DNA of 64,000 nt. It comes from Aquabacterium sp. (GTDB lineage Bacteria > Pseudomonadota > Gammaproteobacteria > Burkholderiales > Burkholderiaceae_C). A model generated the notes under the pieces. That model saw only the letters and a list, made by a program, of their open reading frames with translations. It ran no database searches and was not told where the DNA came from. The stretch's first letter is position 1. Every line of letters starts with the position of its first letter. The translations under genes were made by a program, and so were the position numbers. The stretch spans positions 60,417-124,416 of the forward strand of contig NZ_JAYRDZ010000005.1 of the NCBI RefSeq assembly GCF_041909175.1, written 5' to 3'. Of this stretch, positions 43,749 through 49,624 are shown in pieces.

Positions 43749-44027
43749 ATGGCGCACACGATTCAATCCAAAGAGAAATTGATGGGCCGTGTCAAGCGCA
43801 TCCGCGGTCAAGTCGAAGCACTGGAGCGCGCCTTGGCTGCCGAAAAAGGTTGCGCCGATGTGCTGCACCAGATTGCAGCCATTCGTGGCGCAATGAACGG
43901 CCTGATGAACGAGGTCCTGGAAGGCCATGTACGTGAGCATGTGGCCTCGGCCGACATCACTGACCCGGCTGAGCGCGAGCAGGGTGCACAAGAGCTGATT
44001 GATGTCCTGCGAGCCTATCTGAAGTGA
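43749..44027 (+). CDS. Metal/formaldehyde-sensing repressor (RcnR/FrmR family, DmeR-like)
   Basis: RVKRIRGQVEALER, C..VL.QIAA.RGA.NGL and LEGH..EH. Confidence 0.92.
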   Translation: MAHTIQSKEKLMGRVKRIRGQVEALERALAAEKGCADVLHQIAAIRGAMNGLMNEVLEGHVREHVASADITDPAEREQGAQELIDVLRAYLK

Positions 44028-44998
44028 GTTTGACCATGCATACCGATGACCTGTCCCGACTGACCCACGACCACGTGTTTGACGAGAGCAATGCTGCGGC
44101 AGAACGTGGCACGCGCCTGGTCATGTGGATCACCCTGGCCATGATGGTGGTGGAAATCGCCGCCGGCTGGTGGTTCAACTCCATGGCCTTGCTGGCCGAT
44201 GGCTGGCACATGAGCTCGCATGCCGTGGCCATCGGCCTGTCGGCACTGGCCTACGGCGCCGCGCGGCGTTATGCCACTGACCCCCGGTTTGCTTTCGGAA
44301 CCTGGAAGATCGAGGTGCTGGGAGGCTTTGCCAGTGCCATTTTCTTGCTGGGTGTGGCTGCCTTGATGCTGTTTGGTTCAGTCGAACGCATCGTGTCGCC
44401 GCAGCCCATTCAGTATCGGCAGGCGATCGAGATTGCCGTGCTCGGTCTGGTAGTCAACATCGTTTGTGCGTTGATTCTTGGCAAGGCACACCACCATGAT
44501 CACGGGCATGCACACGGGCACGACCATGGTCATGGGCATCATCATCACGATGACCATCATCATGATCTGAACCTGAAGTCAGCCTATGTGCATGTCATTG
44601 CAGACGCCGCGACCTCGGTACTGGCCATCGTGGCCTTGTTTGGTGGCTGGCTCTACGGCTGGTCCTGGCTGGACCCGGTCATGGGCATCGTCGGCGCCAT
44701 CCTGGTGGCGGTGTGGGCCAAGGGGTTGATCGTTGACACCGGCAAGGTGCTGCTCGACCGGGAAATGGATCACCCTGTGGTCGACGAAATCCGCGAGGTG
44801 GTCGAAGCTGACAGCGAGGCCGGGCAGACGCACATTGCCGACCTGCACGTCTGGCGGGTGGGCAAGCAGGTTTACTCCTGCGCGCTCACCGTGCTCACCA
44901 CCGACCCGAGCCTCACGCCAGACATGGTGCGCGAGCGCTTGTCCGTGCATGAGGAAATCGTGCACTCCACCATCGAAGTGCACCACCGTTCAGCTTAG
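44024..44998 (+). CDS. dmeF: CDF Co(II)/Ni(II) efflux transporter
   Basis: SMALLADGWHMSSH, His-rich loop, NLKSAYVHVIADA and DLHVWRVG. Confidence 0.9.
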   Translation: MSLTMHTDDLSRLTHDHVFDESNAAAERGTRLVMWITLAMMVVEIAAGWWFNSMALLADGWHMSSHAVAIGLSALAYGAARRYATDPRFAFGTWKIEVLGGFASAIFLLGVAALMLFGSVERIVSPQPIQYRQAIEIAVLGLVVNIVCALILGKAHHHDHGHAHGHDHGHGHHHHDDHHHDLNLKSAYVHVIADAATSVLAIVALFGGWLYGWSWLDPVMGIVGAILVAVWAKGLIVDTGKVLLDREMDHPVVDEIREVVEADSEAGQTHIADLHVWRVGKQVYSCALTVLTTDPSLTPDMVRERLSVHEEIVHSTIEVHHRSA

Positions 44999-45974: not shown

Positions 45975-46781
45975 TCAGACGATGGCGGGTGGTTGCCCAT
46001 GGAGGGTATCCATGGCGTTCCAGTACCAGTAGAAATAGCCGTGGTTCTTTTGAAGCAGCGTGTGGGTAACGATGCTGTTCTGGTGGATGTCACCCCAGCA
46101 GGCCCGTGCCGAGTTGCGGTTGTTGTGCAGGTCGATGCATTCGGCATCTGGCAGGGCTGGCTTGGGTGGGATGTAGAGTGCGCACCCTTGCGGCACCCAC
46201 AGGTCAGCCAGTCGGATCTTGCCCAGCTTGGGCCAGTAGCGGCCAACCGAGATCACCAAGGGCTTGGTCGGGTCGGTGGATGCGAAAACGTGCGGGAAGT
46301 CGTGGTGCTCCAGATCGGTGCACACCACGCTCAGCAGGTTGTTGCCCGTGCCCTGATACGGCGACCAATGCCCAGCAAAGACGCCGTATTCGTATTCGAT
46401 CTGCTGCAACTCGGTCACGGGGCTGCTGATCTTCACGGCCTGACCGGGCTTGACCAGCGTGATGCCAAACGCGGCGGCAATGGCCGGCGTGGCCCACAAC
46501 GGTTCAAACTGCACCTCTTTGGCGGCGAACCCCAGTTGGGTTTCCGTGCCATAGGGGGGCGTGGGCTTGATACCCAGTACCTCGGCCACGATGTGCTCAT
46601 GCCCCATGGCCATGGCAGGGTCGGTGGCCGCAGGCGTCAGCACGGTGGCTTTGGGCGGTGCGTTCTTGCGGTAAACCGGCTCGCCCCCTTTGTTGAAGAG
46701 CCAGGGCGTGGCGGCCGTGTCGACCGTGATCTGTTGGACTTCCTTGATGAACAAGGGGGCTGCAAGTTTGTTGTTGGACAT
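45975..46781 (-). CDS. Hypothetical protein, possibly cupin/ureidoglycolate-lyase-like
   Basis: ORF with coding-like bias; LEHHDFPHVF and LWVPQGCALYIP resemble cupin strands. Confidence 0.55.
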   Translation of the reverse strand: MSNNKLAAPLFIKEVQQITVDTAATPWLFNKGGEPVYRKNAPPKATVLTPAATDPAMAMGHEHIVAEVLGIKPTPPYGTETQLGFAAKEVQFEPLWATPAIAAAFGITLVKPGQAVKISSPVTELQQIEYEYGVFAGHWSPYQGTGNNLLSVVCTDLEHHDFPHVFASTDPTKPLVISVGRYWPKLGKIRLADLWVPQGCALYIPPKPALPDAECIDLHNNRNSARACWGDIHQNSIVTHTLLQKNHGYFYWYWNAMDTLHGQPPAIV

Positions 46782-46947
46782 GGCGTACTTGTACGAATGG
46801 ATGGCGCCATGGAAAACGCCTGCGATACAGATCGAAACAGTTTGCCTGAAAGCGAGAAGCAGGCCAGTTTTTGGGTGCTTGATGTCCGCATTACCCGTGT
46901 CCAACAAAGAACAGACTCTGGTATTCGGCTGGGAATTCGGAGAAAAG

Positions 46948-48033
46948 ATGTACGCCAAACTCACCATCAAGCAGCGGCTTGCGATCTACCTGGGCCTCAG
47001 CGTGGCCCTGCAGTGCTGGGTCATCGTGTCTACCTTGAAAGGGTGGGCGAGCGGCACCATCATCACGGGTTCACTGTTGCTGGGTGGGCTCATCACATTT
47101 CTTTACCTGGATGGGGCTCGCGCCACAGCCCGTTTTTTGATGGACCTGGTCGGCGGCGCAGATCGCATGAGCCAGGGCGACTTGCGTGTTGACATGCCGG
47201 CCGGCTTGAACGCCACGGCGCAACAAGGCATGCAGGTGATGCAGCGTTTGCAGACCCGCCTGCGCGAGGTGCTGAGCACCCTGCGCGACGGCGCCGAGCA
47301 AGTGAACACCGCAGCCAGCGAAATCGCCGCAGGCAACCTGGACTTGAGCCAGCGCACCGAGCAGGGCAGTGCTGAGCTTCAAGCCGCAGCCAACTCCATG
47401 CGCAACATGACCGATGCCGCGCGCCAGAGCAGTGCGGCTATGAGCGAGGCCAGTTCCCTGGCAGAGAGCACCAGCTCTGATGCGCGCGCCAGTGGCGAAG
47501 TGATGCGCCGTACCGTGGCTGCGATGTCGGGTGTCAGCGACAGCAGCCGCAAGATTGGCGACATCATTGGCGTGATCGATGGCATCGCTTTCCAGACCAA
47601 CATCCTGGCGCTGAATGCTGCGGTGGAAGCCGCGCGTGCCGGTGAGCAGGGCCGAGGCTTTGCCGTGGTGGCGTCCGAGGTGCGCAATCTGGCGCAACGC
47701 TCAGCCGAGGCTGCCCGAGAAATCAAGACCCTCATCACGGCATCGGTTGAGCAAGTGGATGCGGGGGCGAGTCTGGTGGCTGATGCCGGCACACGGCTCA
47801 ATGACGTCGTGCAAAGCGTGGAGCGGGTGGCAGCACTGATTGGCAACGCGACCCACATGGCTCGCGCCCAAACCGAAGGCATGCAGGTGATCGCCGACTC
47901 GGTAGACCGCCTGGACCAGTCCATGCAGCAAAACGCGGCGCTGGTGGAGCAGGGCGCTGCCGCCGCAGAAAGCCTCAAGACGCAGGCCCACACCCTCAAT
48001 CAGATCGCTGCAGGTTTCAAGCTTCAGGGCTGA
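46948..48033 (+). CDS. Methyl-accepting chemotaxis protein
   Basis: IAFQTNILALNAAVEAARAGEQGRGFAVVASEVR hairpin; two N-terminal TM segments. Confidence 0.95.
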   Translation: MYAKLTIKQRLAIYLGLSVALQCWVIVSTLKGWASGTIITGSLLLGGLITFLYLDGARATARFLMDLVGGADRMSQGDLRVDMPAGLNATAQQGMQVMQRLQTRLREVLSTLRDGAEQVNTAASEIAAGNLDLSQRTEQGSAELQAAANSMRNMTDAARQSSAAMSEASSLAESTSSDARASGEVMRRTVAAMSGVSDSSRKIGDIIGVIDGIAFQTNILALNAAVEAARAGEQGRGFAVVASEVRNLAQRSAEAAREIKTLITASVEQVDAGASLVADAGTRLNDVVQSVERVAALIGNATHMARAQTEGMQVIADSVDRLDQSMQQNAALVEQGAAAAESLKTQAHTLNQIAAGFKLQG

Positions 48034-48227
48034 TCAGCCTCGGGGTGCCGGGCTCGCCATGCCCGCAGGGCCTGACGGTACTCGTCCATGGCCATGTCGT
48101 GGCGGTCGAAAATGCACGGATCGCAGCCGTTGCCGCAGCAGTCGTTGATGTCTGGGGCCTCGGGCGGCTGGGGCATCGGGTCCAGCGGGTCTTGTTCTGG
48201 GGGCACGGTCCGGGTGGTCATGGGCAT
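48024..48227 (-). CDS. Small oxidoreductase-like-domain protein
   Basis: P.PP..P..DCCGNGCDPCIFD motif. Confidence 0.8.
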   Translation of the reverse strand: MPMTTRTVPPEQDPLDPMPQPPEAPDINDCCGNGCDPCIFDRHDMAMDEYRQALRAWRARHPEADQP

Positions 48228-48352
48228 GATTTTCTCGCACCTGTCATGACCTGATCTGCCATGGGGTATCCGAAGTGCATCAGTCGCCCATCGCACCGTG
48301 GTGCGGCGGGCTCTGTCAGACTGACGGCCAGCATGGACATGGGGCCGGTGAC

Positions 48353-48907
48353 ATGACATTGGTGCGGACAAGCCAGACACACCCTCTGCAGATTGCCGAG
48401 GTGCAGGCCAGCCCTGCGCACGGGCGCATCGGCATCACGTTTTGCCCCGGCAAGCACGACCACGGGGCGGTTACTGGTGCCTGGGCACGTGACCTGGCTG
48501 TGGACCTGGATGCCATTGCGGCGTGGGGCGCGAAGCTCGTGCTCACGCTGGTTGAATCGCACGAACTGCAGATGCTGAAGGTGCCGCAACTGGGCCGTGC
48601 CGTGCAGGATCGTGGCATGAGCTGGGTGCACCTGCCCATTGCCGATTACTCGGTGCCGACCGAACTGTTTGAGCAGGACTGGCTCACGCATGGCCGAGAG
48701 ATCCGCGCGCTGCTGCGCCATGGGCACGATGTGCTGGTGCACTGCAAGGGCGGGCTGGGGCGCGCCGGCATGATGGCTGCACGCTTGCTGGTCGAGCTGG
48801 GGGTGGCGCCGGACGAGGCCATTCGCACGGTGCGCAAGGCACGCAAGGGCGCCATTGAAACCCCTTCGCAGCTGGCGGTGGTGCGGCAGGCGCAGCCTCT
48901 GCCTTGA
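48353..48907 (+). CDS. Cys-based protein tyrosine/dual-specificity phosphatase (CDKN3-like)
   Basis: GITFCPGK, RDLAVDL, HLPIAD and the CX5R motif HCKGGLGRAG. Confidence 0.92.
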   Translation: MTLVRTSQTHPLQIAEVQASPAHGRIGITFCPGKHDHGAVTGAWARDLAVDLDAIAAWGAKLVLTLVESHELQMLKVPQLGRAVQDRGMSWVHLPIADYSVPTELFEQDWLTHGREIRALLRHGHDVLVHCKGGLGRAGMMAARLLVELGVAPDEAIRTVRKARKGAIETPSQLAVVRQAQPLP

Positions 48908-48916
48908 GCGCGTGTC

Positions 48917-49624
48917 ATGTCGTCTTCCAGCCAGGTGATCGACACGGCGACGCTGTGCCGCGTGAGCGGGCAGTTGGGCAGCAACCCCGGTGGCCTCTAT
49001 GAAGATGCGCAGGGCGCGCGGTATTACGTCAAGCAGCTTGAATCGGTGGCGCATGCGCGCAATGAACGGCTGGCTGCCGCCCTGTACCAATTGGCCGGTG
49101 CACCGACGCTGCACTATGTGGACACGGTGGCGCCTGATCAGGTGGCGACCGCGTGGCAGCCTTTGGACAAACGGCTGGTGGCGCAACTCGACGAGGCTGA
49201 ACGCCGACAGGCCCAGCACTGGCTGGCGGTGCATGCGTGGACGGCCAACTGGGATGCCGCCGGCTTCGGTGGTGACAACCAGGGCGTCGCCGCGGGGCAG
49301 GTGCTGACGCTCGACGTGGGTGGCGCGCTGGCGTTTCGTGCACATGGTGACCCCAAAGGCGCGGCGTTTGGCAATGTGGTGAACGAAATCGACACCCTGC
49401 GGCACGACCGCGATAACCCCCATGCGGTCAGACTGTTTGGCGACATGAGCGACGCCGAGGTACGGCAGGCCGTGGAGGTGCTGGCCGGCATTCCGGATGA
49501 GGCCATTCGCCAGACGGTGCAGCGCCACGGGGGTAGCGCGGCCTTGGCGGAGAAGATGGTGGCGCGCAAGGCGGATCTGGTGAGGCGGTTTGTACCGGAA
49601 CTGGCTGCAGGAGGTAGTTCCTGA
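48917..49624 (+). CDS. Atypical kinase, HipA/PI3K-like fold
   Basis: GQLGSNPGG loop, YYVK, NE helix, NWD..(6)..DN catalytic segment and LDVGGAL. Confidence 0.68.
   Translation: MSSSSQVIDTATLCRVSGQLGSNPGGLYEDAQGARYYVKQLESVAHARNERLAAALYQLAGAPTLHYVDTVAPDQVATAWQPLDKRLVAQLDEAERRQAQHWLAVHAWTANWDAAGFGGDNQGVAAGQVLTLDVGGALAFRAHGDPKGAAFGNVVNEIDTLRHDRDNPHAVRLFGDMSDAEVRQAVEVLAGIPDEAIRQTVQRHGGSAALAEKMVARKADLVRRFVPELAAGGSS

What the first reader, a model, noticed from the sequence alone, without database searches (positions are those of the whole stretch)
48353..49624. Stand-alone phosphatase plus HipA/PI3K-like kinase pair: candidate writer/eraser or enzymatic toxin-antitoxin module
Seen: a CX5R phosphatase (HCKGGLGR) is followed 9 nt later by a 235-aa protein with atypical-kinase landmarks: Gly loop GQLGSNPGG, beta-3 Lys (YYVK), helix-C Glu (NE), NWD-x6-DN catalytic segment and LDVGG in the DFG position. 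No HTH antitoxin or regulator is adjacent. Established: HipA-family kinases are toxins normally neutralised by HipB-type binding proteins. Inference: the upstream phosphatase could reverse the phosphorylation, giving an enzymatic antitoxin, a defence switch or a small-molecule/lipid kinase cycle. The substrate is unknown.
Basis: partly seen in the sequence, partly recalled or inferred. Interest (0 to 1): 0.7.

Follow-up and report, generated by a model that had tools for sequence, protein, structure and literature searches.

The report
Phosphatase–atypical kinase pair tied to DraT
Two adjacent genes encode a cysteine phosphatase and a small, unnamed kinase-fold enzyme that always travel together (often fused) and were found almost only in bacteria carrying DraT, the ADP-ribosylation off-switch for nitrogenase, so they look like an unstudied part of that control system and not a toxin-antitoxin pair.

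Summary
Window 48353-48907 encodes a 184-aa CX5R phosphatase (Pfam PTP-SAK, Tc-R-P and CDKN3, all above cut-off). Nine nt later, 48917-49624 encodes a 235-aa protein with no Pfam, NCBIfam, PHROG, PADLOC or PDB sequence match. Its AlphaFold model (pLDDT 85.7) has a kinase fold; the best solved match is CtkA (TM 0.59), then RioK1 and aminoglycoside phosphotransferase (APH).

The predicted catalytic residues are invariant. In 86 of 86 related loci the phosphatase lies directly upstream on the same strand, and in 28 of them the two are fused.

The HipA/toxin-antitoxin reading is not supported. DraT is present in 76 of 80 genomes that carry the pair. In evenly drawn samples the pair occurs in 5 of 27 DraT-positive genomes and 0 of 674 DraT-negative ones. 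In seven alphaproteobacterial loci the fused gene abuts draG-draT. The window's own genome has draT-draG beside nifHDK on another contig.

The kinase domain also sits inside phage portal proteins, typically as NUDIX–kinase–Arg-ADP-ribosyltransferase.

Best reading: one writer/eraser unit acting in ADP-ribosylation control of nitrogenase. The substrate is unknown. No publication on it was found.

The parts
48353..48907 (+). Cys-based phosphatase, 184 aa (PTP-SAK / Tc-R-P / CDKN3-like dual-specificity-type fold)
   Evidence: Pfam PF22784 1.9e-12, PF22785 7.9e-12 and PF05706 1.8e-8, all above cut-off. Nearest solved sequences are archaeal PTPs, PRL and KAP. It is 68-80% identical in 86 loci.
48644..48646 (+). 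Asp98, candidate general acid (PIADYSVP loop), 33 residues before the catalytic Cys
   Evidence: The equivalent Asp is invariant in the 25-member fused alignment (D97 of A2). Its role is inferred from the spacing typical of DSPs.
48740..48766 (+). P-loop HCKGGLGR-A: catalytic Cys131, Arg137, followed by Ala138 where PTPs usually have Ser/Thr
   Evidence: HC[KR]GG[LM]GRA is present in all 82 phosphatases read.
48908..48916 (+). 9-nt spacer between the two genes
   Evidence: Sequence. In other loci the gap ranges from -11 to 172 nt or the genes are fused.
48917..49624 (+). Minimal atypical kinase-fold protein, 235 aa, from an unnamed family
   Evidence: No Pfam/NCBIfam/PADLOC/PHROG hit. AF2 pLDDT 85.7, pTM 0.85. 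Foldseek PDB: CtkA TMq 0.59, E 1.5e-4, then RioK1, APH and ePKs. Foldseek BFVD: phage portal/ART proteins, TMq up to 0.82.
48968..48994 (+). Gly-rich loop GQLGSNPGG (res 18-26), between the first two modelled strands
   Evidence: G21 and G26 invariant. Strands at 14-17 and 25-29 in the model.
49031..49033 (+). Lys39 (YYVK), third-strand lysine
   Evidence: Invariant. Lies in strand 35-40.
49061..49066 (+). Asn49-Glu50 in the C-helix
   Evidence: Invariant. Helix 44-60.
49232..49279 (+). Catalytic segment HAWTANWDAAGFGGDN (His106, Asn111, Asp113, Asp120, Asn121)
   Evidence: H106, N111, D113 and N121 are invariant and D120 nearly so, in both the bacterial clade and the phage-type relatives.
49313..49324 (+). 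DVGG (Asp133) in the DFG position
   Evidence: D133, G135 and G136 invariant. Follows strand 128-131.
49337..49360 (+). RAHGDPKG loop (Arg141, Lys147) in the activation-segment position
   Evidence: R141, A142, G144, K147 and G148 are invariant across the whole superfamily. The loop is low-confidence in the model (143-149). A role in binding a constant, possibly phosphate-bearing, substrate is inference.

Best explanation
The two genes encode one functional unit: an ATP-dependent phosphotransferase with a stripped-down protein-kinase-like fold, and a CX5R cysteine phosphatase that removes the same phosphate. Together they set the phosphorylation level of a single target. This resembles bifunctional kinase/phosphatase regulators and not a poison/antidote pair. 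The unit works in the ADP-ribosylation control of nitrogenase (the DraT/DraG switch on NifH). The kinase most likely phosphorylates either a protein of that switch (NifH, DraT, DraG or a PII partner) or the ADP-ribosyl group itself, changing how readily the mark is written or removed; the phosphatase resets it. Shown here: both genes are real; the fold and the conserved catalytic residues; obligate pairing and fusion; near-exclusive occurrence in DraT-positive genomes; adjacency to draGT in some genomes; fusion of the same kinase domain to Arg-type ADP-ribosyltransferase and NUDIX domains in phage proteins. Inferred: actual kinase and phosphatase activity, the target, and the direction of the effect on nitrogenase.
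For: Fold and active site. The AF2 model has pLDDT 85.7. Foldseek hits are kinases only: CtkA, RioK1, APH and ePKs. The Gly-loop, third-strand Lys, C-helix Glu, catalytic Asp/Asn and DxGG residues are invariant in 32 close and 40 distant relatives. The phosphatase passes three Pfam cut-offs and has CX5R plus a conserved upstream Asp.

Pairing. In 86/86 loci the phosphatase is directly upstream on the same strand, and 28/86 are fused with almost no linker. The phosphatase-linked kinases form one clade (support 0.99) among phage-type domains.

DraT link. DraT is present in 48/50 plus 28/30 pair-bearing species genomes; the four exceptions are MAGs. The background rate is 23/400 Gammaproteobacteria and 4/301 Alphaproteobacteria. 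The pair occurs only in DraT-positive genomes of those samples: 3/23 vs 0/377 and 2/4 vs 0/297. With the two seed genomes removed this is 3/25 vs 0/674, Fisher P = 4e-5.

Within the window's genus DraT is in 7/25 species, and the pair is in 2 of those 7 and none of the others. Only 23/40 nifD-positive genomes have DraT, so 76/80 is far above a plain nif association (binomial 3e-14; not corrected for phylogeny).

draG-draT lies immediately downstream, convergent, in 7 alphaproteobacterial loci from several families. The window's own genome has draT-draG next to nifHDK.

Phage relatives. Of 40 scanned, 20 carry ADPrib_exo_Tox, 13 NUDIX and 14 a portal domain. The recurrent order is NUDIX-kinase-ART. 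The BFVD matches are phage 'ADP-ribosyltransferase' and portal proteins.
Against: No biochemical data exist for any member, and the substrate is unknown. In this window the pair is not near draTG or nif (a different contig), and physical linkage is seen in only 7/86 loci. Only about 10-30% of DraT-positive genomes carry the pair, so it is dispensable for the switch. To my knowledge DraT has been studied mainly in Rhodospirillum rubrum, Azospirillum brasilense and Rhodobacter capsulatus; none of these genera appears among the 80 best loci (of 151 matches), but I did not search them directly. No sigma-54 promoter enrichment was found upstream of the pair. The co-occurrence statistics treat species as independent, and the first-look filter of the genome search did not score every candidate. 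Domains of phage polyvalent proteins need not cooperate, so the ART and NUDIX fusions are suggestive only. The interdomain geometry of the fused protein was not predicted with confidence (pTM 0.60).
Confidence: 0.55

Rival explanations
1. Enzymatic toxin-antitoxin or anti-phage module. The kinase is a growth-arresting toxin held in check by the phosphatase, and release of the kinase on phage attack or stress stops growth, as in the KKP module of Pf prophages.
For: The kinase domain's relatives are phage effector domains. The flanks of the pair differ between genomes. Within the window's genus only 2 of 25 species have it. KKP shows that kinase/phosphatase TA-defence modules exist (PMC11341870). 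One locus sits beside an LRR-Roc-COR-TIR gene.
Against: Neither protein hits PADLOC. No integrase, transposase or prophage genes flank it in the window. Both proteins are 62-80% identical across Alpha-, Beta- and Gammaproteobacteria, which is unlike fast-evolving conflict genes. A third of loci fuse both activities in one chain. The restriction to DraT-positive diazotrophs has no explanation under this model.
Confidence: 0.12
2. Small-molecule cycle. The kinase-fold enzyme phosphorylates an NAD+/ADP-ribose-derived nucleotide (for example NAD+ to an NADP-like product, or free or protein-bound ADP-ribose) and the phosphatase reverses it, tuning the donor or product of ADP-ribosylation and not a protein side chain. 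This overlaps with the best explanation and differs only in the class of substrate.
For: The partner phosphatase matches the Pfam model 'DSP-PTPase phosphatase fused to NAD+ Kinase' (PF22741, 4.4e-5, 23.4 bits, below its 27-bit cut-off) in addition to PTP-SAK and Tc-R-P; to my recollection the last two were defined in nucleotide-centred conflict systems, which I did not verify here. The kinase domain is flanked by NUDIX and ART domains in phage proteins. The activation-segment loop R-A-x-G-x-P-K-G is invariant from bacteria to actinophage relatives, as expected for one constant substrate. APH-type small-molecule kinases are among the fold matches.
Against: The closest solved relatives of both enzymes act on proteins: CtkA and Rio kinases, and archaeal PTPs, PRL and KAP. 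No nucleotide-binding accessory domain is present. Nothing was tested biochemically.
Confidence: 0.22
3. A general Ser/Thr/Tyr signalling pair unrelated to ADP-ribosylation. Its co-occurrence with DraT only reflects shared ecology or co-transfer among anoxygenic phototrophs, methanotrophs and sulfur/iron oxidisers.
For: In most genomes, including this one, the pair is unlinked to draTG. No nitrogen-type promoter was found. The hosts share lifestyles.
Against: The pair is absent from 674 DraT-negative genomes in the class samples and from 34 further DraT-negative relatives, and the class samples include 17 nifD-positive DraT-negative genomes. The association holds within one genus. The pair is adjacent to draGT in seven loci. 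The same domain is independently linked to Arg-ARTs in phages.
Confidence: 0.1

Closest known systems
CtkA of Helicobacter pylori and the HipA kinases, which to my knowledge share its fold (structures 3akj/3akk/3akl)
   Same: Best solved structural match to the 235-aa protein (Foldseek TMq 0.59, E 1.5e-4). Both are small atypical Ser/Thr-kinase-like folds with a Lys/Asp/Asn/Asp active site.
   Different: There is no detectable sequence similarity. The catalytic segment is H-x4-N-x-D-x6-D-N and not a HipA-type loop (the HipA loop is recalled from memory). It has no HipB-type HTH partner; the partner here is a phosphatase, often fused.
Kinase domains of phage/conjugative-element polyvalent proteins (Iyer et al. 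2017, PMC5512222)
   Same: These are kinase-superfamily domains embedded in phage polyvalent proteins next to ARTs. That paper describes an insert between the catalytic His and Asp and a reduced C-lobe. The family studied here has His106 and Asp113 separated by six residues and sits in portal/ART proteins.
   Different: None of the 57 proteins scanned matched any Pfam kinase family at the thresholds used. The described group is mainly from Verrucomicrobia-Chlamydia and Bacteroidetes phages. That paper never uses the word phosphatase (0 occurrences).
KKP (PfkA/PfkB kinases plus PfpC phosphatase) of Pseudomonas Pf prophages (PMC11341870)
   Same: A kinase gene (or genes) and a phosphatase gene in one module, whose balance sets the phosphorylation of host targets.
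   Different: KKP is prophage-borne, tripartite, and acts as a toxin-antitoxin/defence system. The pair here is chromosomal, is not in a prophage, is often fused, and tracks DraT.
CDKN3/KAP, PRL and archaeal protein tyrosine phosphatases
   Same: The phosphatase shares their fold and CX5R loop. Like PRL (from my own knowledge), it has Ala after the P-loop Arg.
   Different: It is a bacterial protein obligately coupled to a kinase-fold enzyme, and its substrate is unknown.
DraT/DraG nitrogenase switch
   Same: The pair occurs in the same genomes and is sometimes the immediate neighbour. The switch is a writer/eraser pair acting on NifH.
   Different: No kinase or Cys-phosphatase component of that system is known to me, and the literature searches here found none. 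The pair is present in only a minority of DraT-positive genomes.

Membership tests
Protein-kinase-like fold superfamily | Bilobal fold with Gly-rich loop, third-strand Lys, C-helix Glu, catalytic Asp/Asn loop and a metal-binding Asp after a strand | tested here: met
   The AF2 secondary-structure order places invariant residues at each of these positions. All significant Foldseek PDB matches are kinases. This rests on a predicted structure only.
HipA family (HipA_C, PF07804) | Sequence match to the HipA catalytic domain | tested here: not met
   No Pfam family matched at E<=1. No PDB chain matched at E<=10 with either the sequence or the profile.
HipBA toxin-antitoxin module | Adjacent HipB-type HTH antitoxin | tested here: not met
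   The neighbours are an Oxidored-like ORF, an MCP gene and an MFS gene. In 86/86 loci the partner is a phosphatase.
HipBA or any toxin-antitoxin module | Kinase toxic when expressed alone, rescued by the partner | not testable with these tools
   This needs expression experiments.
PI3K/PI4K (PF00454) | Sequence match and DRHxxN / DFG motifs | tested here: not met
   No Pfam hit. The motifs here are HAWTANWD...DN and DVGG.
Polyvalent-protein kinase group of Iyer et al. 2017 (a Pfam model is recalled as Kinase-PolyVal, PF18762) | Match to a Pfam kinase model | tested here: not met
   No Pfam kinase-family hit in the window protein (E<=1) or in 56 phage-type relatives (E<=0.001). The qualitative description in PMC5512222 (insert between His and Asp) does fit.
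Cys-based PTP/DSP phosphatases | HCX5R P-loop and Pfam match above cut-off | tested here: met
   HCKGGLGR is present. PF22784, PF22785 and PF05706 all score above their cut-offs. The motif is kept in 82/82 homologues.
Cys-based PTP/DSP phosphatases | Ser/Thr after the P-loop Arg, which speeds hydrolysis of the phospho-Cys intermediate | tested here: not met
   Ala is found in all 82 sequences. By analogy with PRL this may mean slow turnover (own knowledge).
Known anti-phage defence systems (PADLOC-DB 2.0) | Match to any defence-protein model | tested here: not met
   No hit at E<=1 for either protein. The database dates from 2023.
KKP module | Prophage location; two kinases plus a phosphatase | tested here: not met
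   No prophage genes were seen in the ORFs of window 44-54 kb, six of which were scanned against Pfam. The unit has one kinase plus a CX5R phosphatase. Sequence similarity to PfkA/PfkB/PfpC was not tested.
Accessory component of the DraT/DraG system (proposed here) | Phyletic co-occurrence with draT | tested here: met
   76/80 pair-bearing genomes have DraT. None of 674 DraT-negative genomes in the class samples has the pair. The same holds within the genus.
Accessory component of the DraT/DraG system (proposed here) | Physical linkage to draTG | tested here: inconclusive
   Adjacent in 7/86 loci, all alphaproteobacterial. Unlinked in the window's genome.
Accessory component of the DraT/DraG system (proposed here) | Effect on NifH modification or nitrogenase switch-off | not testable with these tools
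   This needs genetics and biochemistry.

The most novel reading that the evidence does not exclude
The kinase-fold enzyme phosphorylates the ADP-ribosyl group itself (on Arg-ADP-ribosylated NifH in diazotrophs, and on host proteins marked by the neighbouring ART domain in phage proteins). This creates a 'locked' phospho-ADP-ribose mark that ADP-ribosylhydrolases such as DraG cannot remove until the paired cysteine phosphatase strips the phosphate. That would be a second, previously unknown layer on protein ADP-ribosylation, shared by phage effectors and nitrogenase control.
Probability: 0.12. Interest if true: 0.92.

Novelty: new variant of a known kind. Interest (0 to 1): 0.72.

Why it matters
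Post-translational switch-off of nitrogenase by DraT/DraG is a textbook regulatory system, understood (to my knowledge) to be controlled by PII proteins and AmtB. A strongly conserved kinase/phosphatase unit found essentially only in DraT-positive genomes would add an unknown input or modifier to that switch. It occurs in environmentally important diazotrophs: methanotrophs, purple bacteria, sulfur and iron oxidisers, and wastewater Burkholderiales. The same kinase domain forms a recurrent NUDIX–kinase–ART block in proteins fused to phage portals. Knowing its substrate would therefore also explain a widespread but uncharacterised phage effector activity. It would also give a name and a function to a domain family with more than 4000 representatives at 50% identity and no Pfam model.

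Tried and rejected
1. Family scans of the kinase-like protein (Pfam, NCBIfam, PADLOC, PHROGs) gave nothing usable. The RecX match at E 0.024 is noise.
2. Sequence and profile searches of the PDB gave no kinase match; only cysteine desulfurase at E 0.3, which is chance.
3. A scan for a sigma-54 (-24/-12) promoter in the 300 nt upstream of the phosphatase gene in 84 loci found no enrichment over the reverse-complement control. Regulation by NifA/RpoN is therefore not supported.
4. The sigma-70 promoter and terminator scan of 47.9-50.2 kb found nothing informative.
5. Clustering the neighbours of 87 loci found no recurrent neighbour apart from draG/draT in 7 loci. GGDEF proteins near 11 loci were judged a common-domain artefact.
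6. An AF2 model of a natural fusion was meant to show how the two active sites face each other. With pTM 0.60 the interdomain geometry is not reliable.
7. Metatranscriptome contigs span the gene junction, but coverage is flat over intergenic DNA, so DNA carry-over cannot be excluded. I do not count this as evidence of co-transcription.
8. Literature searches for the phosphatase family with nitrogenase, and for DraT co-occurrence studies, found nothing relevant.
9. HipA/PI3K membership and the TA/defence reading were considered and rejected; see the membership table and the rival explanations.
Full report
**Observation.** The ORF list and sequence show a 184-aa ORF at 48353-48907 (+) and a 235-aa ORF at 48917-49624 (+), separated by 9 nt (translations). 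The first carries HCKGGLGR at 48740-48763. Homologue N-termini support both ATG starts. The neighbours are ordinary chromosomal genes:
- a PAS-GGDEF protein, an MCP, and a small Oxidored-like ORF on the opposite strand that overlaps the phosphatase start;
- an MFS transporter downstream;
- a LysR regulator 1.8 kb away on the other strand.

There is no HTH antitoxin and no integrase or transposase nearby.

**What the proteins are.** The first protein passes the curated cut-offs of Pfam PTP-SAK (PF22784), Tc-R-P (PF22785) and CDKN3. Its nearest solved sequences are archaeal PTPs, PRL phosphatases and KAP. In the 82 homologues whose sequence covered the motif it reads HC[KR]GG[LM]GRA. Ala therefore always replaces the usual Ser/Thr after the Arg, as in PRL phosphatases (my own knowledge). 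The candidate general-acid Asp is invariant.

The second protein matches nothing in Pfam, NCBIfam, PADLOC or PHROGs. It also matches no PDB sequence, even as a profile. An AlphaFold2 model built on 32 homologues is confident (pLDDT 85.7, pTM 0.85). Foldseek against the PDB returns kinases only: CtkA of H. pylori first (TMq 0.59, E 1.5e-4), then RioK1, aminoglycoside and macrolide phosphotransferases, and eukaryotic-type kinases.

The order of modelled elements places each invariant residue where a kinase needs it:
- the Gly-loop (18-26) between the first two strands;
- Lys39 in the third strand;
- Asn49-Glu50 in the C-helix;
- His106/Asn111/Asp113/Asp120-Asn121 in the catalytic segment;
- Asp133-x-Gly-Gly after a strand.

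The same residues, plus an R-A-x-G-x-P-K-G loop, are invariant in 40 distant relatives. The kinase-fold claim is thus supported, on a predicted structure. Membership of HipA or PI3K/PI4K is not.

**The pair is one unit.** The word-indexed search found 798 homologues at 62-83% identity in Alpha-, Beta- and Gammaproteobacteria and one Desulfovibrionales MAG, including roughly 410-aa phosphatase-kinase fusions. In 86 of 86 loci examined (80 species genomes plus six loci from metagenomes and genomes) the phosphatase lies directly upstream on the same strand. In 28 loci the two are a single ORF with almost no linker. The flanks are otherwise unrelated. In a tree of the kinase domains, the phosphatase-linked sequences form one clade (support 0.99) among phage-type domains.

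**Phage relatives.** The exhaustive profile search found 4270 representatives. Nearly all are domains inside proteins of 500-7000 aa. Of 40 scanned, 20 carry an Arg-type ADP-ribosyltransferase domain, 14 a phage portal domain, 13 a NUDIX domain and 8 DUF2213. Where coordinates are available, the order along the chain is NUDIX, kinase, ART. Foldseek against BFVD gives Gordonia and Mycobacterium phage proteins annotated as portal or ADP-ribosyltransferase, with TMq up to 0.82.

Iyer et al. 2017 (PMC5512222) describe kinase domains with an insert between the catalytic His and Asp in polyvalent proteins. That description fits. However, no Pfam kinase model matched any of the 57 proteins scanned at the thresholds used, and that paper never uses the word phosphatase (0 occurrences).

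**The DraT link.** The list of hosts reads like a list of diazotrophs: purple bacteria, Methylomonas and Methylobacter, Thiodiazotropha, Gallionella, Derxia and Rubrivivax. In the Blastochloris locus the fused gene is followed by draG and draT. I then tested this link in five ways.

1. *Physical linkage.* draG-draT lies immediately downstream, convergent, in 7 of 86 loci. All seven are alphaproteobacterial and come from several families.

2. *Forward association.* DraT (PF07357) is present in 48/50 and 28/30 pair-bearing species genomes. The four exceptions are MAGs. DraT is absent from all 14 control genomes.

3. *Reverse association.* The evenly drawn samples gave:

| Sample | Genomes | DraT-positive | Pair in DraT-positive | Pair in DraT-negative |
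|---|---|---|---|---|
| Gammaproteobacteria | 400 | 23 | 3/23 | 0/377 |
| Alphaproteobacteria | 301 | 4 | 2/4 | 0/297 |

With the two seed genomes removed this is 3/25 versus 0/674 (Fisher P = 4e-5).

4. *Within the window's genus* (Aquabacterium, judged from the record title of the matching relative). DraT is in 7 of 25 species. The pair is in 2 of those 7 and in none of the other 18.

5. *DraT versus nitrogen fixation in general.* All DraT-positive genomes are nifD-positive, but only 23 of 40 nifD-positive genomes have DraT. A rate of 76/80 is therefore far above what a plain nif association would give (binomial 3e-14). That figure treats species as independent.

The window's own genome has draT-draG next to nifHDK on contig 3, whereas the pair is on contig 5.

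**Interpretation.** A kinase-fold enzyme and a phosphatase that are always adjacent or fused are best read as a set-point writer/eraser on one target. The association with DraT is seen as phyletic co-occurrence and, in some genomes, as physical adjacency. The same domain is independently fused to Arg-ARTs and NUDIX domains in phage proteins. Together these place the target in ADP-ribosylation biology, and in these bacteria that means the nitrogenase switch.

Whether the substrate is a protein side chain or the ADP-ribosyl/NAD-derived moiety cannot be decided here:
- The closest solved relatives of both enzymes act on proteins.
- The invariant basic loop in the activation-segment position, the NUDIX/ART neighbours and the sub-threshold match to Pfam's 'DSP-PTPase fused to NAD+ kinase' model (PF22741) favour a constant nucleotide-like substrate.

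**Against the toxin-antitoxin/defence reading.**
- There is no PADLOC hit.
- There is no mobile context.
- Sequence conservation across classes is high.
- The two activities are often fused.
- The restriction to DraT-positive genomes has no explanation under this model.

KKP (PMC11341870) remains the nearest characterised kinase/phosphatase module in layout, but it is prophage-borne and tripartite.

**Caveats.**
- Nothing is known biochemically for any member.
- The pair is unlinked to draTG in most genomes and is present in only a minority of DraT-positive genomes.
- No sigma-54 promoter signal was found upstream.
- The genome-search pre-filter did not score every candidate, so a few false negatives are possible.
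- The association statistics are not phylogeny-corrected.
- The fused-protein model did not resolve the interdomain geometry.
- The metatranscriptome contigs could include DNA.

**Earlier notes of this scan.** The pair was reported in other genomes. One follow-up had noted the draTG neighbour and the ART fusions for a fused alphaproteobacterial copy. I reached the DraT link independently (precede). I extended it with genome-wide cross-tabulations and showed that it holds for an unfused, unlinked copy such as this one.

**Verdict.** The kinase fold and the writer/eraser logic are supported. The HipA/TA reading is not. The most likely role is an accessory phospho-switch in ADP-ribosylation control of nitrogenase. 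The family is uncharacterised and, as far as the searches here show, unpublished.

Noticed in passing
window 48024-48380 (-): A small ORF with an Oxidored-like N-terminal domain (PF09791, 8e-9) overlaps the first 28 nt of the phosphatase gene on the opposite strand. Its real start is probably the internal Met (MPMTT...).
   Followed up: partly
window 45975-46970 (-) and 46690-48033 (+): A 331-aa ORF without any Pfam match overlaps the 5' part of the MCP ORF. Either the MCP starts further downstream or one of the two ORFs is spurious.
   Followed up: no
window 43749-44998 (+): A 92-aa ORF is followed, with overlap, by a 324-aa membrane protein with a His-rich loop. By eye they resemble a metal-sensing repressor and a CDF-type cation efflux protein, which would make a metal-resistance pair. 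Neither was scanned.
   Followed up: no
L001 7096-11038 (Methylomonas albis): Directly downstream of the pair lie an 1111-aa LRR-Roc-COR-TIR protein and a faint Zeta-toxin-like gene, a defence-island-like neighbourhood. This genome also holds two copies of the kinase-like gene (P0049, P0056).
   Followed up: no
L005/L006 6905-7441: A 178-aa protein with a weak J-domain match lies 200 nt downstream of the pair. An earlier first-reader note in this scan reported the same neighbour in another genome.
   Followed up: no
phage-type relatives P0129-P0266: There is a recurrent domain order NUDIX - kinase-like - Arg-type ART, often after a portal domain. Several proteins carry two copies of the kinase-like domain (16 of the listed representatives).
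   Followed up: partly
G000 contig 3, about 225.2-231.3 kb (L087, L088): The window's own genome has draT-draG immediately beside nifHDK. Within the genus only 7 of 25 species have DraT.
   Followed up: partly
loci L004, L028, L057, L064, L077, L084, L085: The DraT proteins next to the fused gene are 79-87% identical across several alphaproteobacterial families. This suggests that the block (fusion gene plus draGT) moved horizontally as a unit.
   Followed up: no
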